This document shows positions 4,452 through 41,187 of a stretch of DNA of 41,361 bases, one piece after another; position 1 is the stretch's first letter; every line of letters begins with the position of its first letter. Below the pieces are notes generated by a model. That model had not been told where the DNA came from, did no database searches, and saw only the letters and a program-made list of their open reading frames with translations. The DNA comes from a virus (lineage: Duplodnaviria; Caudoviricetes), in the IMG/VR virus record IMGVR_UViG_3300048850_000033, positions 1 through 41,361 of that record; one strand, written 5' to 3'. Both the position numbers and the translations under genes were made by a program.

Positions 4452-4708
4452 TGAAGACGATTGATCACGACGCTAACGAGCCGCCGATCGACAGAGGGCC
4501 AGGGCCGTGGCGGTGGGTTCTTCCTGTTGTGCTGGCGGTTATCGGCCTGAACGCTTACAGCAGCGGCCTTGACTGGGTTTCATTCGCTTGCGGCGGTGGC
4601 GCCGGTATTGTTCTGACTGCCTGGGCGATTGAGGTAACCGGCAACAAAGTGCCGACCTCATGGCGACGCAATTCGCCCCGCGCCGGCCGCCCCAGAGCTG
4701 ATCATTGA
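4451..4708 (+). CDS. Small two-TM membrane protein (moron)
   Basis: TGATG overlap with the lipoprotein gene; two hydrophobic segments. Confidence 0.7.
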   Translation: MKTIDHDANEPPIDRGPGPWRWVLPVVLAVIGLNAYSSGLDWVSFACGGGAGIVLTAWAIEVTGNKVPTSWRRNSPRAGRPRADH

Positions 4709-6670
4709 AGCTATGATCTGCGCCCGGACCTGATCGGATCGAGACAACCGCCCAATGCCGCCGCTAAGAAGCTGGCGCGCCGCCTCCGGGTTCGTTTCCA
4801 TCATCACCCTCGCCACTTGTTCAATAACGCGCGGCGGCATGCCTTGAGCTTCCCCGACCACCCGCCGACCGCCGTCCATCAGCGCGCCGACGAGATCACC
4901 CCGGAACAGCTTTGACATTACGCCGGGGTCGAATTTTGCCATTTCTGCCGCGTCGGCGAGGTTGTCGGCCGTCTTGGATCCACCAAGCGCCGCATTCGCG
5001 GTGTCGAACATCTGCTGTTCTCGGGCAATCCTGTTGCCCAACTGGCTCGCCCGCTCCGGGAGAGCGAAGGCAGGGAATTCCTCTCCCGTCTTCGGCGTGA
5101 TCAGACCGCGCGCCTTATTCGTTGTCGGCGACATTGAGGCGGATTCGACGCGGGCGATCAGCGGGTCCACATAGCCTGCGCGGAACGCGGACTGCTCGTC
5201 CGGCGTCATGCCTTGGAAATGAGGGATTGTGTCACCGGAGCGCATCCGGCCCGATGCGGCGTTGCGGCCAGTGTCGACAGCATCAATCGTTCGGCTTTGC
5301 TGGCGGAAAGTGTCATTTGCGGCACGGTAGCCCGATGAAGCGTTTTCCAGAGCCTCATCAAGGGCACCGTAAACGCCCCGCATATCGTTTGCCACCTGCG
5401 GGTTGCGCTGCATCTGCTGAAACAGGTCAGACTTGATATTCAGAACGCGATCGAAGTCGATAAGCTGCTCGCCGTCCCGCTGCAATTGGTCGCGGAGAGC
5501 CATCAACCGAGGCCCAAGCGGACCGGCGCTTAGCGCGGTGTCTCCGAGGATGGGGTCTCTGCCAAGAAGGCTATCAATCTCGTCTATGGCGTTGTTGAGG
5601 TTGACGGCGCCAGCGCCTTCTCTCGCCGCTCCATAGTTGGTATTGGCGGAGGCTGTCCGCTGCGCCGTAAGGGATGCTGCGCGCTGTGCCGCTGTATCGG
5701 GCGCCCCAAAGCCTTCGGAAAGGAAGTTCGACAACCGGTCGCCCTGCCCCGCCTGGCGCGTCTGCAGCGCCTCTATGACCGCCTGACGCTCGTTGTTCGG
5801 CGTCCGGGCCACCGTCGAGAGCATCCGCTGTCCGGAATTTCCCATAGCGTCGGCGACCGTGAACATGCCCTGTTCGTCAGCCTGGGAGCGCGTGAGCGCC
5901 TGCGCGATGTCGTCGACCGTCATACCGGAACGGCGCACGCCTTCGCCGATCGCGCGCTCTGCATAGCGCTCCGGAAACAGTCTGGCCGTGACCGGAGCCG
6001 CTGCCATTCCGCCAACCTTTGACACGCCTGCGACGGCAAGCGGAGCCGCACCGCCGAGTAGGAGACCGGCCGCCCCACCAACGCCAGCGCCCTTAAGCCG
6101 GCCTTCAACGCCCTCCCCGCTGCCAGCACCGTGTGCGCCACCAAGAATAGCGCCCTCTCCGGCTGACGTGGCCGCAACGCGCCCGAGACTGGAGCCGCGG
6201 TTGATCGCATTGGCCGTCATGGAAAGGCCGTTCTTCGCGAGACCTACGCCGCCAGCAACGCCGCCAGTGATCCGGCCGGCGAGCGATGCAACCTGATCCT
6301 GCTTGTCGCGCTGGTCTTGGGCTATCCGCTCACGGCGAAGATTCCGGCTGTAATCGCCGAACTCCCCGCCAATACCGGTCAAAGCGCCGCCGGCTGCCGC
6401 AAGCTCATCGGCCATCCCGAGAGACAGCGTGTCGGCAGCGCCTCGCATGAAGCTGTCCACATTCCGCCCGAAGCCGTCTCCGCGATTGGCGGCAGCCTGC
6501 GTCAAGGCGGACAACTCGCCGCGTGCATCAACCGACTGCTGGCTTTCGGGTTGAGGAGCGGGCGACGAGCCCAGATGCTGCTGAAGCGCCTGAAATGCAC
6601 CTTCGGCGTTCTCTCCGGTCACCCGGTACGACTTGCCATCAGGGCCGGTGATCTTGAATGTGGGCATCAC
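4658..6670 (-). CDS. Internal virion / DNA ejection protein
   Basis: Gly/Ala-rich hydrophobic repeats; PTFKITGPDGKSYRV start; third large gene after the tail nozzle gene. Confidence 0.7.
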   Translation of the reverse strand: MMPTFKITGPDGKSYRVTGENAEGAFQALQQHLGSSPAPQPESQQSVDARGELSALTQAAANRGDGFGRNVDSFMRGAADTLSLGMADELAAAGGALTGIGGEFGDYSRNLRRERIAQDQRDKQDQVASLAGRITGGVAGGVGLAKNGLSMTANAINRGSSLGRVAATSAGEGAILGGAHGAGSGEGVEGRLKGAGVGGAAGLLLGGAAPLAVAGVSKVGGMAAAPVTARLFPERYAERAIGEGVRRSGMTVDDIAQALTRSQADEQGMFTVADAMGNSGQRMLSTVARTPNNERQAVIEALQTRQAGQGDRLSNFLSEGFGAPDTAAQRAASLTAQRTASANTNYGAAREGAGAVNLNNAIDEIDSLLGRDPILGDTALSAGPLGPRLMALRDQLQRDGEQLIDFDRVLNIKSDLFQQMQRNPQVANDMRGVYGALDEALENASSGYRAANDTFRQQSRTIDAVDTGRNAASGRMRSGDTIPHFQGMTPDEQSAFRAGYVDPLIARVESASMSPTTNKARGLITPKTGEEFPAFALPERASQLGNRIAREQQMFDTANAALGGSKTADNLADAAEMAKFDPGVMSKLFRGDLVGALMDGGRRVVGEAQGMPPRVIEQVARVMMETNPEAARQLLSGGIGRLSRSDQVRAQIIASMISSGAAGAGRIASP

Positions 6671-8535
6671 TCTTCCTCGATCGTGTAGCCACCGATGGTG
6701 GTCGTCTTCTTGCCGCCAGCGGGCGGCTTGTAGCTGCCGCCGCCGCGCAATTCGTTGATGCGAGTGGACTTCACCTCTTTTACCCGGCGCGCGAGGTTGA
6801 TCATGCGATCGATAGTCCGCTCGCGAATGTCCGGGTCTGTCGAAGGATCGGCTAGGATATCGACAAACCGAGCCAGTTCGGAATCCGTCGTCGCCCCCTT
6901 GAGCGTTTGGGCCATAGACTGAATGGCTTCCATCGACATCAGCTTGTTGAATTCCGATGTCGCCTTCGCCTTGTCGCTGTCGATCAAGAGCCCGGCGCCA
7001 GGAACGTTTGTGCCTATCGTCCCGAGGATCCCCGCGCCGGTGCCAGTGAAGGTTTTGCGATTGAGATCCCGCGCCTGCTCGAGTGCCGAAAGGGTGTTGT
7101 CGAGGAGCGGGAGCTCATCCTCTGCAGCCCACATCGCTTTCTTGTCAGTCGCGGTGAGCTCTTGAGCATCCTCGCGCGGCATTTTCCCAGTCAGAACGAA
7201 CGACTGGTAGCGCGGGTCTTCTGGCGTAAGACCGAGGCTTTCAGCAGCCGCCTTGCGCGCATCCACTTCGTTGCCGACGTTGATCGTCTGGCCTGCGCCC
7301 CCAACGGCATCGATCTTACCGCCGCGCGAGCGCTGATAGACGCGCTGATCTGTGTCCGGAATGCCGAGTGCCTGGCGCTCTTCTGCGGAGAGGACCTGAT
7401 ATTCCGGCTGCGGGTTGCGCATCTGGTCAAGCTCAAGGCGCCCTTTTTCGAGCTGCATCTGCCGCACAGGATCGGATTGCTCAATCTGCTGCTGGTAGAG
7501 CGTCTGGATCACCGCCCGCTGTTCTTCACTGAGGAACGGATTGCTGAGAGCCCGGAGCAACGACATCTGATCCGGGCCTTGCGGCGCCTGCTGCTGAGGC
7601 TGGGGCTGCTGCTGGCCCATTGCCTGCGCCTGGGCGATCTGCTCGGGCGACGCAGGTGCGCCGCCCATGAGCGCCGGCATGATGCCGCCTTGCGCGTTGG
7701 CGAGCTGCGCCGACTGCTGTTCTGGCGCGGGCTGTGGGGCTTGCTGCGGTTGACCGGCGGCCATTGCGTTGACAGCACCCGCGGTGTTTTGGGGTAGCAT
7801 GCCGGCGGTCGGGTCCAAACTAGCTATCTCGGTCTGCTGCGCCTGCGGCCCAAGGGCGGACATGAACTTGCGGCCATAAGTGCCGACATCCGTTCCGAGC
7901 GAATCCTTGCGGTTCGTCTTGCCAACGCCGCCGGGGCCGGCGAACCATGCCTGCGCGGCTCCTTCCGGCCCGAACTTCTGCACGTAGCTGTTGAACTTCC
8001 CGTCGAAAATGGCGTCTTGAAGCTGAGGATTCGCCATAAACTCGTCGGGCGTGACCTCACGGCCGAGCACTTCGCGCGACCACGGCCCAATGTTCGCTTC
8101 CATGATTTGGTAGCGACCGAGGGCGCGGCCCATCTTCGGATGAGTGGGGCCGACAGCCTTGTAATCGCCGCTTCCGGCGCTCTCGATCGAGGCGATCGCG
8201 TCCCGGTAGGAGGACGAACCGGAAGTGGCCGCCGCAGTGCTCGCCGGCTTGATGCCCGGAGAAAGCATGCTCGACGCGCTCACGTCAGGCGCTTGGCCGA
8301 TGATCCTGTTGAACAGGTCATCCGCGGCGCTTTTGCTCGCCTTTTCGGCCTGCCCGGTGCGATGATTGCCGATCCCGACCGCCGCCCCCTTGAGCATGGC
8401 GCCAATGCCCTCGTAAGCGTTCTTCGGCGCCTCTCCCATCACCTGAGCCGACAACGCCTCGAGCATCGCGCGCTTGCGGGCGAGCGTCTGGGGCGTCTCG
8501 GCAGTGTTGCCGCCGAACAGGAACGAGTAGGCCAT
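6667..8535 (-). CDS. Ejection protein with lysozyme/lytic-transglycosylase-like domain
   Basis: AIASIES (catalytic Glu) ... ALGRYQIM ... AAQAWFAG motifs; Gln/Pro linker. Confidence 0.8.
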   Translation of the reverse strand: MAYSFLFGGNTAETPQTLARKRAMLEALSAQVMGEAPKNAYEGIGAMLKGAAVGIGNHRTGQAEKASKSAADDLFNRIIGQAPDVSASSMLSPGIKPASTAAATSGSSSYRDAIASIESAGSGDYKAVGPTHPKMGRALGRYQIMEANIGPWSREVLGREVTPDEFMANPQLQDAIFDGKFNSYVQKFGPEGAAQAWFAGPGGVGKTNRKDSLGTDVGTYGRKFMSALGPQAQQTEIASLDPTAGMLPQNTAGAVNAMAAGQPQQAPQPAPEQQSAQLANAQGGIMPALMGGAPASPEQIAQAQAMGQQQPQPQQQAPQGPDQMSLLRALSNPFLSEEQRAVIQTLYQQQIEQSDPVRQMQLEKGRLELDQMRNPQPEYQVLSAEERQALGIPDTDQRVYQRSRGGKIDAVGGAGQTINVGNEVDARKAAAESLGLTPEDPRYQSFVLTGKMPREDAQELTATDKKAMWAAEDELPLLDNTLSALEQARDLNRKTFTGTGAGILGTIGTNVPGAGLLIDSDKAKATSEFNKLMSMEAIQSMAQTLKGATTDSELARFVDILADPSTDPDIRERTIDRMINLARRVKEVKSTRINELRGGGSYKPPAGGKKTTTIGGYTIEEE

Positions 8536-10127
8536 TATTTTTTCCTTCCTGCTTCGAAGAGCGCGCCGTAATTCACCCGCCGGAGGCCGTCAGACCCCTT
8601 GCGTACGGCGTCGGGGCGGACCTTCTCCACCTCCTGCGCCATGACGCCGATCCGCTTCGGAGCGTTCTTGCCTTCGCCCTTGTAGCGGTACTCATAGAGG
8701 CCGCCGACTTTCTTGATATCCTTCTTCGCCGTCTTGTCGGACAGCGTGAAGAGGCCCGCGAGGCCGCCCATCAGACTGCCGATGCCCGCCTGATTCTGCT
8801 GGTATGCGCCCATCTTGTTCGCATAGTCCTGTTGCACGAGGCCGGCATAATCGACGGTCGGCATGGGGTTGCTCTGCGTCGGGACGAAGCTCGGGCTGTT
8901 GACCTGCGCGCCGGACATGAGGCCGATGATTTCGTTGATCGGCTGGTTGCGCTGGGCATAGAGCTCGTTCAGGTACTGCGCCCGCTGCTGGTTCTGCATG
9001 TTGAACTTCGACTGCTGCGAGTTGAAGCTCTGGTCTTGCAGGGCGTTATTGCCGGCCGTGGCGGTGTTCTGGTTCTGATATTGCTGCTGCAGCGCGTCGT
9101 TGCCGAACTGGGCACCTGCCAAGCCCTGGCCAAACTTCTGCTGCTGCGCCGCGTTGTTGGCCTGTAACTGTGCCTGGTTCTGCCCGAACTGCTGCTGCTG
9201 GGCGGCATTGCCCATCTGCATGTTGTTGGCGTTCTGGGCATATTGCTGCGCCTGCGCGGAATTGGCGAACTGGCCAGAGCCGAGCATCTGGTTATAGGCC
9301 TGCTGTTGGGCAGAGTTTTGGAAGGTCGCCGACTGATTGGCGAGCCCGGCCAGACGGGATTGCTCCTGCCCGGCGCTGAGGATGGCGCCGAGACGAGCAT
9401 CTGTGGAAGACCGGTTCGCCTCGTCGATCGCCCGGTTGTAGGCCTCGGAGCCCGGCTGCAGGCCTTGGTTCGTCAGCCGCGTTTCCAGAGCCGCGCGATC
9501 CCGCTCCATCTGCGGGTTCAGGCGCTGCATCAGCGCATCCTCGACCCTCTGCCGGTCGGCGCTGAAGTCCGTCTCGTAGCTGCGGGTGATGTCGCCGGCG
9601 TTGCCGAGCTGGTTCTGTATCTTGCCGCTGTCGGCAACCTGCTTCTGAATATTGCCGGCGCCAGCGATCGACGATTGAACGTTGCCGTAATTGCCGAGGC
9701 TCGTCTGTAGCTGCGGCCCGCTGCCGAACTGCTGGTATTGCGGCAGCCCGATGGCGCCGGCGTTGCCCCCGGCCGGGGCGCCGGAGATGTCGATCGGCTT
9801 GCCGAGCAGATTATTGAGCTTGCCCGACTGATTGTTGGCGAGTGTCGCCATGTTCAGTTCGGCGGCGTCCGTCTGGTTCTTGATGGCCTGCTGCTGCTGG
9901 GAAAGCGTCTGCGTAGCGGTCGGAACCTGCAGGTCATAGACCTTGCCGCTAACCGGATCAGTCCATTGCTTCGTTTCATAGGTGTAGGTCAGCTTTCCAT
10001 CAGGCGTGACCTGGTTGACGTTGCCCATCAGATTGTTGGCAACGGAAGTCCCGATATTCGTCGCCGTCTGTGCGGAGGCTGTTTCCTGCGGGTCAGGAGC
10101 TTCCGGAGCGCTACCGTAAAGGCCCAT
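8535..10127 (-). CDS. Gln-rich pilot/ejection protein with C-terminal peptidase S74 (intramolecular chaperone) domain
   Basis: SDKTAK...YEYRYKG...IGVMAQEVE...VNYG S74 motifs; 18-aa Gln/Asn repeats. Confidence 0.8.
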   Translation of the reverse strand: MGLYGSAPEAPDPQETASAQTATNIGTSVANNLMGNVNQVTPDGKLTYTYETKQWTDPVSGKVYDLQVPTATQTLSQQQQAIKNQTDAAELNMATLANNQSGKLNNLLGKPIDISGAPAGGNAGAIGLPQYQQFGSGPQLQTSLGNYGNVQSSIAGAGNIQKQVADSGKIQNQLGNAGDITRSYETDFSADRQRVEDALMQRLNPQMERDRAALETRLTNQGLQPGSEAYNRAIDEANRSSTDARLGAILSAGQEQSRLAGLANQSATFQNSAQQQAYNQMLGSGQFANSAQAQQYAQNANNMQMGNAAQQQQFGQNQAQLQANNAAQQQKFGQGLAGAQFGNDALQQQYQNQNTATAGNNALQDQSFNSQQSKFNMQNQQRAQYLNELYAQRNQPINEIIGLMSGAQVNSPSFVPTQSNPMPTVDYAGLVQQDYANKMGAYQQNQAGIGSLMGGLAGLFTLSDKTAKKDIKKVGGLYEYRYKGEGKNAPKRIGVMAQEVEKVRPDAVRKGSDGLRRVNYGALFEAGRKK

Positions 10128-10130
10128 GTG

Positions 10131-10592
10131 TCAATCCTTTATCCAGTCTTCGACGGTCTCTCGCGAGCCGGAATGGCAGAGTTCGAAAAAGTCCTCGGTC
10201 GTGGTCTTGGCGTGGTCGTATCCGCCGCAGATCGCAGCAACTGCCGTGACGATCGAGCCGACAGCCTCACGCATGACAAAGCCGAATTGCCGCTTCAGAG
10301 CGTCCCGAGAGGAGCGCCACTCGTCCGAAAGCTGCCATTGCACGACGACGTTGTTGATCAGCGGTGCCAGGGTTGCGGCATGGCGGACGAAGAATGGGTT
10401 CAGCGGCAGGACGGTGAGCGTGCGCACCAACAGCCAGCAGACGTTTCTCTGCCGGTTCTCCTCCTCGTCGACAATATCGTCGGCGAGCCGGGCGACCTCG
10501 GCTATCTCGTTGAGGAAGTCGGCCGCCGCCTCGTCGCCACGCGTCCAGCGCAGGAGTGCGGCGCGCACGGCTTCTTTATCGCTCGGCAACAT
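10131..10592 (-). CDS. All-alpha protein with DDxxD motif (isoprenoid synthase/prenyltransferase-like)
   Basis: ARLADDIVDEE and LPLNPFF; start overlaps the upstream stop; the gene is clearly real but its function is inferred. Confidence 0.6.
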   Translation of the reverse strand: MLPSDKEAVRAALLRWTRGDEAAADFLNEIAEVARLADDIVDEEENRQRNVCWLLVRTLTVLPLNPFFVRHAATLAPLINNVVVQWQLSDEWRSSRDALKRQFGFVMREAVGSIVTAVAAICGGYDHAKTTTEDFFELCHSGSRETVEDWIKD

Positions 10593-12208
10593 CAGGCGCT
10601 CGCCTCCCCGATCGATACTTGAACCGTGGCTAGGTCAACCTCGATATCAAGCTTGAAATTGCCGCCGGAGGTGATGACGCAGCCGACCGCCAGCATGTCG
10701 CCCGCTGCCCGGACGTTTTGGCGGAAGTCGTAGCGCTGTACCTCGGATGCCCCATCCCAAATGGCCACGTCCCAGAGGCCAACATCCCATTCCGACGAAC
10801 TCACATCCCCTTCAGTGATCGTGGCGAAGGTCGGCGTTGACCGGTCATAGTCGGCGCGCGCGAATAGCCGGACCTTTGGCTTGGTCTTGGCCCGGAAATA
10901 CATATGCGCGAGTGTGGCGTTTGCCCGCTGTCCGAACTGCCCGGCTGGCGAGAACTGCGAGAGATAGCTCGCCGAGAAGGTCAGGCCGTCATCTGTACCG
11001 CCGGCGTCTCCCTGCCACATGTAGCCGTCGAGTGAGCCGAAGAAGAGGCCGCCTTGCAGCGTCTCGTAGCAGAGCGCCTGCCAATTGCTGATCATCGACC
11101 AACGCCCGGTGAGAACGTTCAGGACAAAAGTCGTGTCCGTGACGACGGTATTTTCCGGGAATGCGACGAACACCAGGTTCTGCTCGGGCCACTGCTTCAG
11201 CGTCCAGCCGCTCCCGGTGGCGTTGGCTGCCTTGCGCCAGTCATCCTCGATCGGGCGAGAGACGGACACCAGCGAAAGAGCCTGGCGGTCGCGCTGGAAC
11301 ACCTGCGACATCGGCGTCAGGCCGTCCGTCGTGGCTATGAGGATGTCGCCGCCCGCTCTGATCCATGCGTTTTTGCCGAGCGGGCGGCCGATCTGATAGA
11401 CGCCCTTCAGCGCGAAATCCGATGCACTCGACGGATCGGAGCCGGCATAGACCGCTATTTCACCTTCGGTCGAGACGAAGACGCACATGTCGTTGAGGCC
11501 GTCACCGCTTTCCAGCGACCAGGAGAAGCCGGTGAGCAGCGAGCCGCCCTTCTTCATCACGCCGCCAAGCGGGAAGACGACGGCCGCGCCGCCAATGGCG
11601 TTCACCGGCAGGTAATAGGCGTCCAGCGTGCCGTTCTTCAGGAAAAACTCCCGGTTCTTGAACAGCCAGCCATAATTGAGCTGCGGCATCGTCGTGCCAT
11701 CGGTGAAGGTGATGGCCGGCGCTGTCGTCCAACTCGTGCCGTTATAAAGCTGCCGGTTATTGGCGCCATTCAGGCACACCAGCCAGGACGTGCCGGCATT
11801 GGTATGCTGGAAGGCGCACCAATCACCGCCGCTCATACCGGAAACATCGGCCGCGGTCGTGGTTGGCGGCGCGGCCGGCGAGGTCATGTTGTAGATGCCG
11901 CTCGCCGTCGCCATGAACAGCTTTTCGTTACTTCCGTATTTGTACTTAAAGGCGCTCCGGACATCGCCGCCGTCCGCCGCCCGGCCCTTCTTCTGCGAAC
12001 CGCCCCGGATTTTGCAGCCCGTCAGCGTCGGGAAGAAGTTGCGGAGCACCGTTGCCGAGCCCGGTTGTTGCGAAGCCATGTCCGCCGTGGTGACAAGGCC
12101 TCCCTTCGGCGCAGGGAAGGTCACCGGCTGCGATTTCTGGTCCCGGCCGACCGACACCGCCCCGCGGTTGGATTGCCCTATACGGGCCGGTCTGGGCTGA
12201 ATTCTCAT
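10592..12208 (-). CDS. Tail nozzle / DNA stabilisation protein (P22 gp10-like, beta-rich)
   Basis: 538 aa beta-rich; STEGEIAVYAGSDP and WDVGLWDVAIWD motifs; follows the adaptor genes. Confidence 0.75.
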   Translation of the reverse strand: MRIQPRPARIGQSNRGAVSVGRDQKSQPVTFPAPKGGLVTTADMASQQPGSATVLRNFFPTLTGCKIRGGSQKKGRAADGGDVRSAFKYKYGSNEKLFMATASGIYNMTSPAAPPTTTAADVSGMSGGDWCAFQHTNAGTSWLVCLNGANNRQLYNGTSWTTAPAITFTDGTTMPQLNYGWLFKNREFFLKNGTLDAYYLPVNAIGGAAVVFPLGGVMKKGGSLLTGFSWSLESGDGLNDMCVFVSTEGEIAVYAGSDPSSASDFALKGVYQIGRPLGKNAWIRAGGDILIATTDGLTPMSQVFQRDRQALSLVSVSRPIEDDWRKAANATGSGWTLKQWPEQNLVFVAFPENTVVTDTTFVLNVLTGRWSMISNWQALCYETLQGGLFFGSLDGYMWQGDAGGTDDGLTFSASYLSQFSPAGQFGQRANATLAHMYFRAKTKPKVRLFARADYDRSTPTFATITEGDVSSSEWDVGLWDVAIWDGASEVQRYDFRQNVRAAGDMLAVGCVITSGGNFKLDIEVDLATVQVSIGEASA

Positions 12209-20545: not shown

Positions 20546-20791
20546 ATGAAGATCATCTGGGACGAACCGAAGCGCATCGCCAATATCGAGAAGCACGGCC
20601 TCGACTTCGCCGACCTGTCTCTCGATTTCTTCCTTGCCTCTCTCGTCGTCCCGGCGAAGAATGGTCGGTCAAAAGCTATCGGCCGCCTTGAGGACGGGAC
20701 AATCGTCGTGATCTTCGTCACCCTTGGCTCTGAGGCGCTGTCGGTCATATCGATGCGCCCGGCCCGAAAAGATGAAAGGAGCCTGCTCTGA
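20546..20791 (+). CDS. brnT: BrnT family toxin (RelE-like RNase)
   Basis: WDEPKRIANIEKHGLDF ... VISMRPARKDER signature. Confidence 0.93.
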   Translation: MKIIWDEPKRIANIEKHGLDFADLSLDFFLASLVVPAKNGRSKAIGRLEDGTIVVIFVTLGSEALSVISMRPARKDERSLL

Positions 20792-21114
20792 TGGCTATCA
20801 CGTACAAGCGCCTGGAAGAGTTCCAGCCTGGCCGCGGCTACAGCAAAGAGGACTGGGACGCCGTGTCAGACAACCCGCCTCTGACTGAGGAAGAGATGAA
20901 GCAGGCGCGCCCATTCAAAGAAGTCTTCCCCGACATCGCGGAGGAGATTGAGAAGGCCGTCCGTGGGCGACCAAAGGCCGACCTGACCAAGACGCCGGTT
21001 ACGATCCGTCTCGACCCCGACATTGTCGATCATTACAAGGCGACCGGCAAAGGCTGGCAGAGCCGAATGAATGACGACCTTAGAAAGGCCGCCGGGTTGA
21101 AGAAGGCTAGTTGA
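20791..21114 (+). CDS. brnA: BrnA family antitoxin (C-terminal RHH)
   Basis: DNPPLTEE, RGRP and VTIRLDPDIVDHYKATGKGWQSRMNDDLR signature. Confidence 0.93.
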   Translation: MAITYKRLEEFQPGRGYSKEDWDAVSDNPPLTEEEMKQARPFKEVFPDIAEEIEKAVRGRPKADLTKTPVTIRLDPDIVDHYKATGKGWQSRMNDDLRKAAGLKKAS

Positions 21115-23893: not shown

Positions 23894-24192
23894 GCCCCTG
23901 CCCTCCGGCGCTCGATCGGTATGACTCTGCCGTTCTTGCGGATAGGTCTCAGGCTGAACAGCGCATCCGCCGCGGCGAACCGCTCTGCCTTGGCGCCGTC
24001 GCGCAGATACTCGCCATTGAAATACCGCAGCAGATGACGGTTGACGGCCCGGAGCGCTTCCAACTCGGTAGGGAACACTTCCGGCTTGTCGCCCTTCCCC
24101 ATGATGGGTTTCGGCTTGCCGTCTCGGGCAAAGCGGAGCATGGCCCAATGGCCTCCAGGAACTGCCTTCGTATAGCCCGCAAACTCGTTCAT
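23890..24192 (-). CDS. Hypothetical protein
   Basis: ATGA coupling at both ends. Confidence 0.7.
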   Translation of the reverse strand: MNEFAGYTKAVPGGHWAMLRFARDGKPKPIMGKGDKPEVFPTELEALRAVNRHLLRYFNGEYLRDGAKAERFAAADALFSLRPIRKNGRVIPIERRRAGA

Positions 24193-24980
24193 ACGCCGCA
24201 CATCCCTTCGCATTCGTTGATGAACATGTTGAGCTGACCGCGATCCTCGGCGGTCGAAAGATCGACTTCTGAGAGAGGCACCAGAGAAGGATGAATGAAT
24301 GGTGTGCCGCGAAGCAGCACTCTGTCTTCCCGGATCATCTCATCAAAGCGAACCGCTTCTTCCCACGAGCACCGATCATTCGCTTTCATGTCCCGCCACA
24401 TGGCATCGCTGTGAAACGGGCAGAAGGTGCAGGCGCTCTTGGGCGCGCGGGGATACTGGCGTTCCTCCTTCCACTTCAGGCAGTCCCGGCGAGACATACG
24501 CATCTCGATCAGGGGCCAGCGATGCTCCACGAATGACAGCCGTGACGGCTTCATGCGGGATGCTTCATCAAGCGAAATGCCAATCCACTGGACGACCTTG
24601 ACCGTCTTCGGGCCACGTTGCCGAGGCTTCAAGCCGATCAGTTCGCGGACCTTCTTTTGGATCGGGATTATCTTGTAATCCTGCGTGCACTGGCGGTTGC
24701 TAAACCCCTTTGAGCCGTTCGGGTTTAGGATATGGAAGGGGGGCCTGCCGTTCGTCTTGCCCCTCTTCATATCCTCAACGATATTGCCGGCCGCGACCCG
24801 GTGGACCGGGAAAGGCAATTGCTTCTCAAGCCATTCAAGATGCTGGTAGACCACCTTGGGCTCGGCGCCGGTGTCAGCGAAGATCGCGCAATCAGGCATT
24901 GGGCCGATATCGCCGCGTGCCGCCATCAGAGCGAGGGTGGTGGACTGAACGCCAGCCCCAAGGGAAATGACGTTCATCAT
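24189..24980 (-). CDS. PAPS reductase-like (PP-loop) protein
   Basis: VISLGAGVQST, IFADTGAE, RQCTQDYKI, WIGISLDE, PKSACTFCPFH and ECEGMCG motifs. Confidence 0.85.
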   Translation of the reverse strand: MMNVISLGAGVQSTTLALMAARGDIGPMPDCAIFADTGAEPKVVYQHLEWLEKQLPFPVHRVAAGNIVEDMKRGKTNGRPPFHILNPNGSKGFSNRQCTQDYKIIPIQKKVRELIGLKPRQRGPKTVKVVQWIGISLDEASRMKPSRLSFVEHRWPLIEMRMSRRDCLKWKEERQYPRAPKSACTFCPFHSDAMWRDMKANDRCSWEEAVRFDEMIREDRVLLRGTPFIHPSLVPLSEVDLSTAEDRGQLNMFINECEGMCGV

Positions 24981-26437
24981 ATCATCCTCTCCTGCGCTAC
25001 CGCCGGCCGGTTCGACACATAGCGGGTGTACCGGGCCTCGAATTTCAGCGTTTCGCGAACCTCGGGATCCCCGAAGCGATTCTTGATCACGCCTATTTCT
25101 GCCTTCGACCTGATCTCTTCTTCGTCTCCGAACTCGCCGAACACCTTGTTGATGATCTTCCAGTCTCGGTCGTTTGCCGCCGTCGCTACTCTCTTGGAGC
25201 GGTACTTCTGCGGTCGATACAGGTAGACGATGCTGTCATAGTCCTGCCTGGCTCCTTCGCCGCCATAGAGGTCTTCATCGATCGGCCGCGGATTGTCTCG
25301 CTTGATGCCTGCGGAGTTGCGCTGATTAAGGAGGAGAACCGCCGCTGCTACCTCGTCGGCCAAAGCCTTCAGTTCGACGGTGATCTCTGCGGACTGTGTT
25401 CCGGCGTCTGCCCGCGTGTCGCGCACCTTTATCTTTTTGATGTGGTCTATGACGATGAACGGAGTCTTGCCATTGGCGCGGCTCTTGATGAACCGGCGTG
25501 CATAGGCGACGAGTTGCGCCACTCCCTCACGCTGGCATCGGATGATTTCCAGCGGCTGCTGCTTGAGCCACAGGGCAAATTTGACGCACTGATCTTGCTC
25601 GTTCGGGGTCATGAGGTTCGACGGGTCGCGCTGCTGGCGAAGGTCGATCCCCTTCTCTTGGGCGATCATCTGGCGAACGCATTGCGCGGCCGACTGGTCA
25701 TAGGAGAGAAATAGGACCGGGTGACCTTTCCGGAGAGCATGGAACATAAGCTGCATGGTGAGGCTCGTCTTGCCCTCGCCCGATGAGGAAAGAAGCCCGT
25801 AGAGGTTTCCCGCCTCGAAGACTGGCTCGGAGAGTACCTTCGCAATCTCCGGAAGAGGGATCGGGACACCTATGACGCCGTCTGCCTTTGCCGAGGCATT
25901 GAACGCCGCCAGATAAGCATCGCCGGCCGAGACGCTGGCTTTTAGAGCTGCAAGGCGCGTCCTGCGCTCCTTCAAGCGCTGCTCGAGGGCTTCTATCTCC
26001 TCGTCGAGGGTGAGAAGCGTATGGCCTTCTGAGGCGATCGTGGCCGCGAATTCTGCTTCGCTCGCAAGGCCGCGCGAGAGCGCCACGCCCTTGATAATCG
26101 GGATGTCACCTTCCATGCGCATCCGCACCGTGGGATCGGTGCCCATCATCGTTAGGCGGGTGAGGTATTCCGCCGGCGAGATGCTGAGACCTTCGAGGGT
26201 CTTCGGCAGTGCCGGCTTCATGGATACGGCGTTGATGTGCTGGTGCGTCTGATAGAGACGCTGCGCTTCCTTGAAGATGAGGCGGTGAAGGCTTTGGGAG
26301 AAGTCGTCGGCGTCCAGGCCGCAGTCTGCCAGGACCGAGTTGTCGCCGAAGATGCAAGCGAGGAACCGCTCGGCCGCCTCTATGGCGTCATCTTCGGTAA
26401 TCCGGTCGTTGAGTTTGAGCCCCGCATGCATGTTCAT
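24977..26437 (-). CDS. dnaB: DnaB-like replicative helicase
   Basis: AERFLACI..DFSQSLHRLIF N-domain; GEGKT Walker A; IVIDHI, LLLNQ, ARQDYD and KNRFG motifs. Confidence 0.88.
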   Translation of the reverse strand: MNMHAGLKLNDRITEDDAIEAAERFLACIFGDNSVLADCGLDADDFSQSLHRLIFKEAQRLYQTHQHINAVSMKPALPKTLEGLSISPAEYLTRLTMMGTDPTVRMRMEGDIPIIKGVALSRGLASEAEFAATIASEGHTLLTLDEEIEALEQRLKERRTRLAALKASVSAGDAYLAAFNASAKADGVIGVPIPLPEIAKVLSEPVFEAGNLYGLLSSSGEGKTSLTMQLMFHALRKGHPVLFLSYDQSAAQCVRQMIAQEKGIDLRQQRDPSNLMTPNEQDQCVKFALWLKQQPLEIIRCQREGVAQLVAYARRFIKSRANGKTPFIVIDHIKKIKVRDTRADAGTQSAEITVELKALADEVAAAVLLLNQRNSAGIKRDNPRPIDEDLYGGEGARQDYDSIVYLYRPQKYRSKRVATAANDRDWKIINKVFGEFGDEEEIRSKAEIGVIKNRFGDPEVRETLKFEARYTRYVSNRPAVAQERMI

Positions 26438-27000
26438 GCTTGCCTCCCGGCATAGAGGATGACCGGCGCGCGCGGCAGGCGGGGCTTCTCGGTCCAGACG
26501 TACCAGGCGTGATCTTCTGTCCCTGTCACGCCGTCGAGCGTCCAACTGATCCGATCGGTCAGGGCGATCTTGGCGGCGAAGCGAGGGTTCTTGCCGAAGA
26601 GATGCCCGCGGGTGTTGCCGAAATCGAACTTCGCAGTGAGGAGGAGTGCGACGAGGCCCTTGCAGCGGGTCAGAGCATATTCGGCGAAGAGACGGGCATC
26701 CCGGTTGCCTTTGCCGTATGGCGGGTTCGTGATGATCGCTGAGACGCTGGGCCATACCCCATGAGGCCGCAGGAAGTCGTAGATCGACTCATGCTCTCGG
26801 TCATAGGTGGCTATATCGGAGGTATGGACGAAGTCGGCCTGCTCTTTGAGGACATCGGCCATCAGGTGATTGCCGGCGGCCGGCTCCCAGACGGTCATGC
26901 CGTTGACCGGGAAATGCCGTAATAGAGCCTCTGTCACCCACGGCTCTGTCTGGTAGAGGTCGTTTTCGGCTCGGGCGTATTTCGATGCGGTGACCGTCAT
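26434..27000 (-). CDS. Small orphan amino-DNA methyltransferase (m6A/m4C)
   Basis: DLYQTE, WEPAAGNH (motif I) and IITNPPY (motif IV). Confidence 0.88.
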   Translation of the reverse strand: MTVTASKYARAENDLYQTEPWVTEALLRHFPVNGMTVWEPAAGNHLMADVLKEQADFVHTSDIATYDREHESIYDFLRPHGVWPSVSAIITNPPYGKGNRDARLFAEYALTRCKGLVALLLTAKFDFGNTRGHLFGKNPRFAAKIALTDRISWTLDGVTGTEDHAWYVWTEKPRLPRAPVILYAGRQA

Positions 27001-39836: not shown

Positions 39837-40055
39837 ATGAGCCGAGCAGCCTTCAGACAAGCGGACATGGAGCGCATCTTCCGCGCGGCTCGTCGTGAGG
39901 GCTTCGCGGTGCAGATCGACATCCGATCCCTGGTTGTTACCGCTATCCCCAGCGCGGAGCCGGCTGAGGCTGTTGACACGACGCCGAAACAGGGAGGCAT
40001 CCTGCCATCGGGCAATCTCGCCCCCGATGGAAAGGAAAATTGGGATGAGGACTGA
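39837..40055 (+). CDS. Putative excisionase / recombination directionality factor
   Basis: Small ORF overlapping the integrase start; FRQADMERIFRAA pattern; function from position. Confidence 0.55.
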   Translation: MSRAAFRQADMERIFRAARREGFAVQIDIRSLVVTAIPSAEPAEAVDTTPKQGGILPSGNLAPDGKENWDED

Positions 40056-41187
40056 CAGGCCGGGCTACCAGTACCGGCAAAACAAGGATGGAACCACCGT
40101 CCATTACTGGAATCCGAAGCGGGCGATAAAGGGAGCGCCCGACTATCTGACGACGATACGCCTAGAGGATGGGCTTTCGGATGAGCAGATCGCCGCAGAA
40201 TGCCGGCGTCTTACAGAACAGTTGCGCGATGACTTGCGCAATTTCGACGCCCCGCCGAAGTTTGACGGCACGATCAAAGCCCTGATCGATTGCTTCCGCC
40301 ACGACAAGACGAGCACGCTGCATAGCGTCAAGCACTCGACGAGGATTCGGGACTATGAGCCCAGCCTCCGCGTGCTCGAGAAAAACGTCGGAGGCAGACG
40401 GATAGACGCGCTCAAGGCGTCAGATTTCCGGGAGTGGTTTGCCAAGTGGCGCAAGAAAGGCCACAGGAGGGCGTCAGGCGCGATCAAGCTCCTGCGGCTC
40501 ATCATCTCCTACGGAGCCGGAGAACGCCTCACTGGCTGCGCACAGGCTCGCTTGATCCTCTCCGATATGCGCTTTGAGCAGCCGGAGGCTCGCACGGTCA
40601 CGATGACCTACGAGCAATGCCTGGCGATTGTGCTGAAGAGCATCGAAATGGGATGCCCGTCGATCGGGTTCGTCGAGGCGCTGAAATTCGAATCAGCGTT
40701 GAGGCGAATTGACGTGATTGGGGAATGGGCCCCGCCGCCTGAAGGAGGCGCGTTCCGCTGGCGCGGACTGACGGGGAAGGACATCTCTCGGGATCTGATC
40801 TTGTCGATCAAGACGAGCAAGACGGGAGCGGCCGCAGCGCGCGACCTTAAGGTCATGCCGCTTGTGCAGGAAGCGCTGAAGACTTTCCGCATTCCAGACA
40901 TCGGGCCCGTCGTCGTCGACGAGGACACCGGCAAGCCCTATTGGGATAACCGCTATACGGAGAAGTTCCGGAAGGTGAGAGATGCTGCCGGCGTGCCGTC
41001 GAACGTATGGTCGATGGATTCGCGGGCTGGCGCTGTGACGGAGACGGTAGAGGCTACCGGCTCATTGGAGGACGCCAGCAATTTGGCGACACACAGCACC
41101 ACGAAGACCACCCGGCGCTATAGCCGAGGCGATGGTCTGGAGAAGAGCCGGGCGATTGCCAAGGCTCGGTCTGAAAAGCGTAAGTGA
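40045..41187 (+). CDS. int: Tyrosine integrase
   Basis: Catalytic residues: ALRRID (R), SKTG (K), MDSR (R), ATH (H), RRY (Y); adjacent to att. Confidence 0.92.
   Translation: MRTDRPGYQYRQNKDGTTVHYWNPKRAIKGAPDYLTTIRLEDGLSDEQIAAECRRLTEQLRDDLRNFDAPPKFDGTIKALIDCFRHDKTSTLHSVKHSTRIRDYEPSLRVLEKNVGGRRIDALKASDFREWFAKWRKKGHRRASGAIKLLRLIISYGAGERLTGCAQARLILSDMRFEQPEARTVTMTYEQCLAIVLKSIEMGCPSIGFVEALKFESALRRIDVIGEWAPPPEGGAFRWRGLTGKDISRDLILSIKTSKTGAAAARDLKVMPLVQEALKTFRIPDIGPVVVDEDTGKPYWDNRYTEKFRKVRDAAGVPSNVWSMDSRAGAVTETVEATGSLEDASNLATHSTTKTTRRYSRGDGLEKSRAIAKARSEKRK

What the first reader, a model, noticed from the sequence alone, without database searches (positions are those of the whole stretch)
8535..10592. 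Possible virion-protein prenylation system: DDxxD enzyme coupled to the pilot protein
Seen: a 153-aa helical protein with LADDIVDEE lies between the tail nozzle gene and the first ejection protein, 3 nt from the latter's start. That ejection protein begins MGLYGSAPEAPDP. Known: DDxxD at a helix end is the Mg2+/diphosphate-binding motif of class I isoprenoid synthases, including the peptide prenyltransferase ComQ. In T7- and P22-type podoviruses this slot holds a small GNAT-like gene (T7 gp13, P22 gp14). Inference: a prenyltransferase has replaced the acyltransferase and lipidates the neighbouring ejection protein, perhaps at Tyr4 or the N-terminus, to anchor it in the host membrane during injection. 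I know of no described case of phage virion-protein prenylation.
Basis: partly seen in the sequence, partly recalled or inferred. Interest (0 to 1): 0.8.

Follow-up and report, generated by a model that had tools for sequence, protein, structure and literature searches.

The report
Phage ejection-protein prenyltransferase candidate
This phage carries a small protein predicted to fold like a lipid-chain (prenyl) transferring enzyme in the gene position where its relatives carry an acyltransferase-type gene, and the first residues of the neighbouring DNA-injection protein change with that swap, so the enzyme likely attaches a lipid tail to that protein, a modification I found no report of in phages.

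Summary
Gene 10131-10592(-) encodes a 153-aa helical protein with DDxxD at the end of helix 2, 3 nt before an ejection-protein gene starting MGLYGS. The family has 1,116 clusters. In 246 members D38 is invariant, D42 is in 245 and R108 in 237. The model matches a cut-down isoprenoid-synthase core at middling Z (9.8), without a second Asp motif.

The co-variation test came out strongly. Among 241 loci of this ejection-protein family, 64 have DDxxD upstream, 164 a GNAT, none both. Tyr/Trp at positions 2-4 occurs in 64 of 64 DDxxD loci and 4 of 147 others; Lys in 0 of 64 and 108 of 147. A second ejection family repeats this: Tyr4 or Trp4 in 60 of 60, against 0 of 20. Other enzyme clades pair with Cys-, Pro- or Ser-starting partners, so Tyr4 is subfamily-specific.

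Best reading (about 0.6): the enzyme prenylates the pilot N-terminus, here likely Tyr4. No activity is shown, the phylogenetic pair test is underpowered, and mature P22 gp7 was sequenced with an unblocked N-terminus. The scan noted this family four times on other genomes.

The parts
10131..10592 (-). 153-aa DDxxD protein (phrog_21390), predicted minimal isoprenoid-synthase-fold transferase
10467..10481 (-). Codons of D38-D39-x-x-D42, predicted Mg2+/diphosphate-binding motif
   Evidence: D38 246/246, D39 237/246, D42 245/246; coordinates
10488..10490 (-). Arg35, a position that tracks the partner's N-terminal class (Arg with Tyr/Trp, Gln with Ser-Gly, His with Cys/Pro/leader)
   Evidence: confounded by kinship, and the His class was fetched with a His-containing pattern
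10269..10271 (-). Arg108, near-invariant; inferred diphosphate contact
   Evidence: R in 237/246, K in 4; role inferred
10135..10140 (-). AAAGGA Shine-Dalgarno-like hexamer inside the enzyme's 3' end, 7 nt before the pilot ATG (likely translational coupling)
   Evidence: read from the sequence
8535..10127 (-). 530-aa first ejection (pilot) protein, putative substrate
   Evidence: phrog_6121, phrog_4287
10110..10127 (-). Pilot N-terminus MGLYGS; Tyr4 codon at 10116-10118 is the inferred acceptor
8601..8741 (-). Peptidase_S74 (intramolecular chaperone) domain at the pilot C-terminus, aa 463-509
   Evidence: Pfam PF13884 E 8e-8
10592..12208 (-). 538-aa upstream tail gene, likely nozzle by position (PHROG 5107, annotated amidase)
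   Evidence: nozzle identity not tested
6667..8535 (-). 622-aa gene after the pilot, likely second ejection protein
   Evidence: position; phrog_24990 of unknown function
4658..6670 (-). 670-aa gene, likely third ejection protein
   Evidence: position; phrog_5880 of unknown function

Best explanation
The 153-aa DDxxD protein is likely a Mg2+-dependent prenyltransferase that would attach a host-made prenyl chain to the N-terminal residues of the ejection protein encoded next to it, in this phage most likely Tyr4 of MGLYGS. SHOWN: invariant DDxxD plus Arg108; tight gene coupling; mutual exclusion with GNAT genes in this ejection-protein family; matching change of the partner's first residues. 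PREDICTED: a cut-down isoprenoid-synthase helical core. INFERRED: the Asp motif and Arg bind Mg2+ and an allylic diphosphate (DMAPP, GPP or FPP from the host); loss of diphosphate gives a carbocation that alkylates the Tyr (O or ring carbon) or Trp ring; this happens in the cytoplasm before the pilot is packaged; the lipid tail helps the first-ejected protein enter the outer membrane. Other clades would use the same chemistry on Cys, Ser or the terminal amine (Pro).
For: Conservation: D38 246/246, D42 245/246, R108 237/246 in a family whose members are mostly 22-45% identical to this protein. Fold: best VIA match 5h9d_D Z 9.8, rmsd 3.3, 139 aligned; 22 of the top 23 rows are isoprenoid synthases, and 49 of 50 in the second look. 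Coupling: 366 of 373 loci with room downstream have an ATG-started ORF within -26..+6 nt of the stop. Exclusion: of 241 loci of the window's pilot family, 64 DDxxD, 164 GNAT profile, 0 both, 13 neither. N-terminus: Tyr/Trp at 2-4 in 64/64 vs 4/147, Lys at 2-5 in 0/64 vs 108/147; at least 6 swaps on the pilot tree, and a single DDxxD clade is rejected (AU p 0.003). Second family: Tyr4 48, Trp4 12 of 60 DDxxD loci, no Phe; 0 of 20 others aromatic, all 20 with Lys. Their slot gene resembles HlyC-type lysine acyltransferases (Atlas 0.97; PF02794 on 22-23% of cluster members, a lead). Third family: Lys before the Gly run in 0/46 vs 35/53, and the alternative slot protein folds as a GNAT (Foldseek E 6e-7). 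Position 4 is constrained at protein level: entropy 0.76 bit vs 1.83 and 1.91 for its neighbours, with TAT and TAC both common (28 and 17). Fusions to an AttH/CrtC-type lipocalin domain occur in 14 of 30 long homologues scanned (2ich_A E 4e-17).
Against: No activity, ligand or modified peptide is shown. Fold scores are middling for a helical bundle, and Foldseek gave no PDB match at E<=0.001. The profile comparison with host synthases is weak (probability 7.7). The best structural matches are the short chains of heteromeric synthases, which I recall as non-catalytic. There is no second Asp-rich motif. All characterised trans-IDS-like peptide prenyltransferases target Trp only (PMC13290415 section 2.4). 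The independent-pair test is underpowered: 4 pairs (p 0.125) or 2 pairs on well-supported branches, although none goes the opposite way. The second family shows one swap only. The slot gene and the pilot's first codons are adjacent and can travel together. On the GNAT side, a P22 gp7 fragment was N-terminally sequenced as Lys-Gly-Gly-Lys-Gly (PMC8402733 section 3.1), which argues against full acylation there. About half of the enzyme representatives pair with partners that have no aromatic residue at the start.
Confidence: 0.6

Rival explanations
1. The protein is a non-catalytic (or catalytically irrelevant) chaperone or adaptor that binds the pilot's N-terminal peptide and delivers it to the procapsid; GNAT-fold proteins do the same job in other phages.
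For: Co-variation would also follow from binding specificity. The closest structures are short synthase subunits. P22 gp7 is unblocked at its N-terminus and assembles through its N-terminal part (PMC8402733).
Against: Two invariant aspartates and a near-invariant arginine across 246 divergent members with unrelated partners fit a catalytic metal site better than a peptide clamp. Tyr and Trp but never Phe at position 4 in the second family points to a nucleophile rather than hydrophobic packing.
Confidence: 0.15
2. It is an enzyme acting on the pilot N-terminus, but the transferred group is not a prenyl chain (another diphosphate-activated donor, such as a nucleotide or lipid-linked group).
For: The fold link is distant. 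Some homologues are fused to a glycosyltransferase-looking domain (seen by eye, no Pfam match). Acceptors would range over Tyr, Trp, Cys, Ser and Pro.
Against: Every ranked enzyme match is an isoprenoid synthase. Tyr/Trp interchange suits electrophilic alkylation (established chemistry). Lipocalin fusions suggest a hydrophobic ligand.
Confidence: 0.12
3. It acts on small molecules or pairs with the host polyprenyl synthase as a surrogate small subunit, changing host lipid supply; adjacency to the pilot is incidental.
For: Best matches are 5h9d_D, 9kp1_A and 3aqb_A. Atlas leads PF07307 and PF22538 score 0.78-0.79, below the 0.9 mark.
Against: This does not explain the exchange with GNAT genes or the residue changes in the neighbour in three pilot families.
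Confidence: 0.07
4. The co-variation is hitchhiking: the slot gene and the pilot's first codons move as one cassette, and the enzyme's target lies elsewhere.
For: The genes are 3 nt apart. Few independent swaps are well supported.
Against: Position 4 is conserved while positions 3 and 5 vary, and synonymous codons are mixed. MG-x-Y is kept between enzymes 32% identical whose pilots align only over 19 residues. MGLYGS persists in L543, where an unrelated reversed gene separates enzyme and pilot.
Confidence: 0.06

Closest known systems
Trans-IDS-like peptide prenyltransferases (ComQ, PalQ, ChrPC P domain; related Ord1)
   Same: Isoprenoid-synthase fold with an Asp-rich donor motif (Ord1 chains 9v4h/9v4g match at Z 6.2-6.4); a peptide or protein acceptor is proposed.
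   Different: Only 153 aa; no second Asp-rich motif. The proposed acceptor here is mostly Tyr, whereas all characterised members target Trp (PMC13290415 section 2.4, read in full). The partner is a 530-aa virion protein, not a signalling peptide.
Small subunits of heteromeric hepta-/hexaprenyl diphosphate synthases (5h9d_D, 9kp1_A, 3aqb_A; PF07307, PF22538)
   Same: Best structural match and similar size (Z 9.8, rmsd 3.3, 139 aligned).
   Different: Those subunits are non-catalytic and lack DDxxD (recalled, not tested here). This family keeps DDxxD invariant, and no partner synthase gene stood next to it in the loci examined.
Trans-isoprenyl diphosphate synthases (IspA/IspB, PF00348) and MoeN5
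   Same: The model aligns over 140-148 residues to the core, e.g. E. coli IspB 39-236, Z 7.8; weak sequence hits centre on the Asp motif (best E 0.048).
   Different: No Pfam match; one Asp motif only; about half the length.
T7 gp13-like GNAT genes beside internal virion protein genes
   Same: Same gene slot: phrog_4470 acyl-CoA N-acyltransferase (E 2e-40) stands here in close relatives; PMC6775973 (passage) links such GNATs to T7 gp13 and virion morphogenesis.
   Different: Unrelated fold and donor. No substrate of these GNATs turned up in my searches, so that they acylate the pilot is also an inference.
Cyanobactin prenyltransferases (PirF and kin)
   Same: One enzyme family with several acceptors including Tyr (PMC13290415, passages).
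   Different: ABBA barrel fold (recalled), unrelated to this all-helical protein.

Membership tests
Class I isoprenoid synthase superfamily | All-helical terpenoid-synthase core | tested here: met
   22 of the top 23 VIA rows and 49 of 50 second-look rows are isoprenoid synthases, covering model residues 3-153; best Z 9.8, which is middling for a helical bundle.
Class I isoprenoid synthase superfamily | Conserved DDxxD at a helix C-terminus | tested here: met
   D38 246/246, D42 245/246; end of helix 21-42.
Class I isoprenoid synthase superfamily | Significant sequence or profile match | tested here: inconclusive
   Best PDB profile E 0.048, 15 of 17 hits are synthases; hhalign probability 7.7 vs 0.14 for a reversed control; no Pfam hit.
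Class I isoprenoid synthase superfamily | Mg2+-dependent ionisation of an allylic diphosphate | not testable with these tools
   Needs an assay.
Trans-IDS chain elongases (PF00348) | Two Asp-rich motifs (FARM and SARM) | tested here: not met
   No second conserved Asp cluster in 152- and 246-sequence alignments.
ComQ/PalQ-type Trp prenyltransferases | SARM with upstream Gln that recognises Trp, in addition to FARM | tested here: not met
   Only one motif. A Q-x-x-DDxxD variant exists in 81 of 246 members, but they pair with Ser-Gly starts, not Trp.
ComQ/PalQ-type Trp prenyltransferases | Tryptophan acceptor | tested here: inconclusive
   The window's pilot has Tyr4 and its first Trp at 55; 12 of 60 loci in the second family have Trp4.
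ComQ/PalQ-type Trp prenyltransferases | Homodimer with the prenyl cavity facing the interface | not tested
Small subunit of heteromeric polyprenyl synthases | Loss of the catalytic Asp motif; match to PF07307/PF22538 | tested here: not met
   The motif is invariant; no Pfam match in 136 members; Atlas scores 0.78-0.79 only.
Podovirus first ejection protein (neighbour gene) | Homology to known ejection proteins and position after tail genes | tested here: met
   phrog_4287 E 4e-5, phrog_6121 E 8e-159; follows portal, capsid and adaptor genes. No solved relative at E<=0.1.

The most novel reading that the evidence does not exclude
The gene slot before the first ejection protein is a general lipidation slot. 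Phages fill it either with a GNAT/HlyC-type acyltransferase acting on Lys, Cys or the terminal amine, or with this minimal prenyltransferase, whose clades act on Tyr/Trp, Cys, Ser or Pro. Virions of many short-tailed phages, and some tailless ones, would then carry a self-lipidated pilot protein that opens the host membrane. This would explain T7 gp13-type genes and add a 150-aa protein prenyltransferase family with switchable acceptor residues.
Probability: 0.4. Interest if true: 0.92.

Novelty: new variant of a known kind. Interest (0 to 1): 0.78.

Why it matters
How the first ejected protein leaves a packed capsid and enters the outer membrane is open. T7 gp14 is ejected first, is water-insoluble and ends in the outer membrane (PMC8954989, passages). 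The small GNAT beside it has no substrate that my searches found. The swap seen here gives a direct test: one named residue (Tyr4), one named motif (D38/D39/D42) and a predicted mass shift. If true, this would be prenylation of a phage virion protein by a phage enzyme, which none of my literature searches returned. It would also be an isoprenoid-synthase-fold enzyme acting on Tyr, where characterised ones act on Trp, and a very small protein-lipidation tool.

Tried and rejected
Pfam and NCBIfam give no family for the protein; Pterin_4a at E 0.002 is below cut-off and was rejected as chance. Foldseek against PDB gave nothing at E<=0.001; BFVD gave four uncharacterised or unnamed viral homologues. 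A residue-level mapping to host synthases (R108 as the KT lysine, W86-x-x-S-D as GQxxD) could not be shown: hhalign aligned only the Asp motif, and to the second motif, while the structural ranges imply the first. A CaaX-type site was rejected: the pilot has no Cys. 'Tyr4 for the whole family' was rejected. Profile comparison did not link the third family's slot protein to GNATs (probability 1.6), but its fold did. Direct Pfam scans gave no HlyC hit for 8 slot proteins of the second family, only weak Acetyltransf_17 in 2, so HlyC remains a lead. GNAT-looking genes beside or fused to lipocalin-DDxxD proteins (L070, L074, L080, P0163, P0184) got no GNAT match. An automatic start correction shortened L446 from MAWMPD to MPD; that start is ambiguous, and with the later Met it would be one exception. 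Literature: searches (listings only) returned no report of phage virion-protein prenylation or of this family. No supplements were read, and subscription papers are not searched.
Full report
Setting. The window is a 41,361-base virus record with an integrase and a CI-like repressor and SU10-type portal, capsid and adaptor genes. The closest homologues of the protein in question (92% identity) are from Sinorhizobium meliloti, so it is likely a temperate rhizobial podovirus.

Observation. ORF 10131-10592(-) encodes 153 aa with LADDIVDEE at 36-44. It overlaps the upstream 538-aa gene by one base and ends 3 nt before the ATG of the 530-aa gene starting MGLYGSAPEAPDP. The neighbour matches virion structural and DNA-ejection PHROGs and ends in a Peptidase_S74 domain. 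The upstream gene is a nozzle by position only.

Family and conservation. The only library match is phrog_21390, function unknown. A profile search found 1,116 clusters at E<=0.001. In 246 sequences (136 from protein searches, 110 from loci) D38 is in 246, D42 in 245, D39 in 237 (7 Asn), R108 in 237, N65 in 228, W86 in 218 and E145 in 205. There is no second aspartate cluster. One isolated phage, Achromobacter phage CF418P1, carries a homologue directly before a gene starting MGCMST.

Fold. The model (pLDDT 97, 136-row alignment) has eight helices with the motif at the end of helix 21-42. Foldseek on PDB gave no match at E<=0.001, though synthases reached probability 0.9 and TM 0.52-0.57. The wide VIA search ranked 5h9d_D first (Z 9.8, rmsd 3.3, 139 aligned), then 9kp1_A (8.9); 22 of the top 23 rows are isoprenoid synthases, as are 49 of 50 in the second look. 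The tool warns that Z under about 13 may be common for helical bundles. The case rests on the uniform identity of the hits, the full-length coverage and the motif. Sequence support is weak: best E 0.048, hhalign probability 7.7. Which of the two synthase motifs DDxxD corresponds to is unresolved.

Gene coupling. DDxxD genes were found in 425 loci, with duplicates (230 distinct enzyme sequences among the 373 with room downstream). Of these 373, 366 have an ATG-started ORF within -26 to +6 nt of the stop. The partners belong to unrelated families. One locus (L078, 15.5-kb contig) has a replication initiator, a packaging-type ATPase and a 272-aa major head protein, and no tail genes that I recognised. 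It looks PM2-like (inferred), yet it has the same gene before a 111-aa protein starting MSVGGKSS.

Swap test, window's pilot family. I fetched pilot homologues independently of the enzyme: 241 loci including the window, with some contigs fetched twice. Within 2.5-3 kb, 64 have a DDxxD gene, 164 match a GNAT profile, none has both and 13 have neither. Nine of the 13 look like a different GNAT, confirmed by Pfam in the two tested. The GNAT is phrog_4470 (E 2e-40). The window has no GNAT-profile hit. Thirty loci, all without DDxxD, were dropped (29 without an ATG start, 1 without the anchor). Of the remaining 211, Tyr or Trp stands at positions 2-4 in 64 of 64 DDxxD loci and 4 of 147 others, and those four look like upstream-start miscalls. 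Lys at 2-5 occurs in 0 of 64 and 108 of 147. After dereplication, an aromatic residue at 2-5 is in 18 of 18 and 5 of 93. On a tree built without the N-terminus the slot changes at least 6 times, and one DDxxD clade is rejected (AU p 0.003). The independent-pair test is underpowered: 4 supported pairs with FastTree (p 0.125) and 2 with IQ-TREE, 6 on all branches, none going the opposite way.

Second and third families. In a second pilot family (80 loci), all 60 DDxxD loci have Tyr4 (48) or Trp4 (12), Trp arising at four places on the tree and Phe never. All 20 others lack an aromatic residue and have Lys; there is one swap only. Their slot protein resembles HlyC-type lysine acyltransferases by language-model features (0.97; PF02794 on 22-23% of members), but direct Pfam scans gave only weak GNAT hits in 2 of 8. 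In a third family (99 of 110 loci classified), Lys precedes the glycine run in 0 of 46 DDxxD and 35 of 53 other loci, and the other slot protein folds as a GNAT (E 6e-7). Here the DDxxD partners start MASLGG, MSSVGG or MSIGG, without Tyr.

Enzyme clades and partner starts. On a FastTree of 111 representative enzymes, one clade has Cys near the partner's start in 13 of 14, another has Pro2 in 11 of 13, two separate clades have Tyr/Trp, and others have Ser-Gly or leader-plus-Gly starts. Residue 35 tracks this: Arg in 23 of 27 Tyr/Trp cases, Gln in 21 of 26 Ser cases, His in most others. This is confounded by kinship and by my His-containing search pattern. For the R[LIFG][AI]DD type, 39 of 39 dereplicated partners have Tyr or Trp at 2-4, and position 4 has entropy 0.76 bit against 1.83 and 1.91 for its neighbours. 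The RTVDD enzymes also have Arg35 but pair with Ser-Gly starts and fall outside that pattern.

Is it only linkage? The slot gene and first codons are adjacent, so they can move together. Against that as the whole story: the residue is conserved while neighbours and codons vary; enzymes 32% identical keep MG-x-Y on pilots that align over only 19 residues; and L543 keeps MGLYGS although a reversed gene lies between enzyme and pilot.

Mechanism. Most likely (0.6) the aspartates and Arg108 bind Mg2+ and a host allylic diphosphate, and the resulting carbocation alkylates Tyr4 of the newly made pilot. A related host genome encodes two PF00348 synthases (G001). The lipid would help the first-ejected protein enter the outer membrane, as T7 gp14 does (PMC8954989, passages). 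The conservation, exclusion and co-variation are shown, the fold is predicted, and the chemistry and purpose are inferred. Rivals: peptide-binding chaperone (0.15), another transferred group (0.12), surrogate synthase subunit (0.07), linkage alone (0.06). The main outside evidence against is that a P22 gp7 fragment was sequenced as Lys-Gly-Gly-Lys-Gly from its N-terminus (PMC8402733, passages). I did not see the method; Edman-type sequencing needs a free amine. It bears on the GNAT side, and only if P22 gp14 is such a GNAT, which I did not verify.

Comparison with what is known. It works like ComQ/PalQ-type enzymes but fails their membership: no second motif, and mostly Tyr where characterised members use Trp (PMC13290415, section 2.4 read in full, other passages). 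It is neither a chain elongase nor a small subunit. Phage isoprenoid-pathway genes have been noted (IspD in Flandersviridae, PMC8008677, passages), and HlyC appears in a pelagiphage figure legend (10.1101/2019.12.14.876532, passage). PMC10386132 and PMC7824862 (passages) had no occurrence of 'prenyl'. Ten searches (listings) returned no phage virion-protein prenylation. Four earlier notes of this scan describe the same family on other genomes; two of them found no support for tryptophan prenylation. In my tree, leader-bearing partners go with a different enzyme clade.

Verdict. A real, widespread, uncharacterised family with good comparative evidence that it acts on the pilot's N-terminus and moderate evidence that the act is prenylation. 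New variant of a known kind; interest 0.78.

Noticed in passing
P0068, P0113, P0121, P0126, P0190; L070:5618-7465, L074: Long fusions: a glycosyltransferase-looking N-terminal domain (DxD, by eye; no Pfam match), an AttH/CrtC-type double lipocalin domain (2ich_A E 4e-17) and the DDxxD domain at the C-terminus, directly before a large Gly-rich ejection-like protein.
   Followed up: partly
P0163, P0184; L070:5080-5502, L074:5059-5481, L080:206-619: GNAT-looking domains fused to, or encoded just before, lipocalin-DDxxD proteins, so the two enzyme types may co-occur in these phages. No library confirmed the GNAT.
   Followed up: partly
L472, L473, L598, L599, L601, L603, L604: Pilots starting MCAP/MCSP go with a distinct GNAT subfamily (Acetyltransf_1, E 1e-8 to 3e-8 in two tested), so GNAT type also tracks the partner's first residue.
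   Followed up: partly
L632-L677 (non-DDxxD loci of the second pilot family): The slot gene resembles HlyC-type lysine acyltransferases by Atlas features; all 20 partners have Lys at positions 2-5.
   Followed up: partly
L078:4465-6634; L380: A probable tailless PM2-like virus carries the DDxxD gene before a 111-aa membrane-anchored-looking protein starting MSVGGKSS; L380 has a similar partner.
   Followed up: partly
L185-L239, L246-L325: Many pilots have a 15-25 residue leader before a Gly run, like the leader removed from P22 gp7 by OpdA; the residue before the run is often Lys with GNAT and Met/Phe/Leu/Cys with DDxxD.
   Followed up: partly
L128, L152, L154, L573, L580 and others: 29 pilot genes of the window's family have no ATG at the expected start and read Ile/Val/Leu before GK, suggesting alternative start codons.
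   Followed up: no
P0094, P0157: Tandem duplications of the DDxxD domain in one chain; the second copy of P0094 lacks the motif, hinting at a dimer as the working unit.
   Followed up: no
window 8601-8741: Peptidase_S74 chaperone domain at the pilot's C-terminus; a similar C-terminal stretch is seen by eye in CF418P1 WNO49114.
   Followed up: no
window 24189-27000, 20791-21114, 39895-41187: PAPS-reductase-like gene and DNA methyltransferase beside the helicase, an antitoxin-like gene, and an integrase at the window's end.
   Followed up: no
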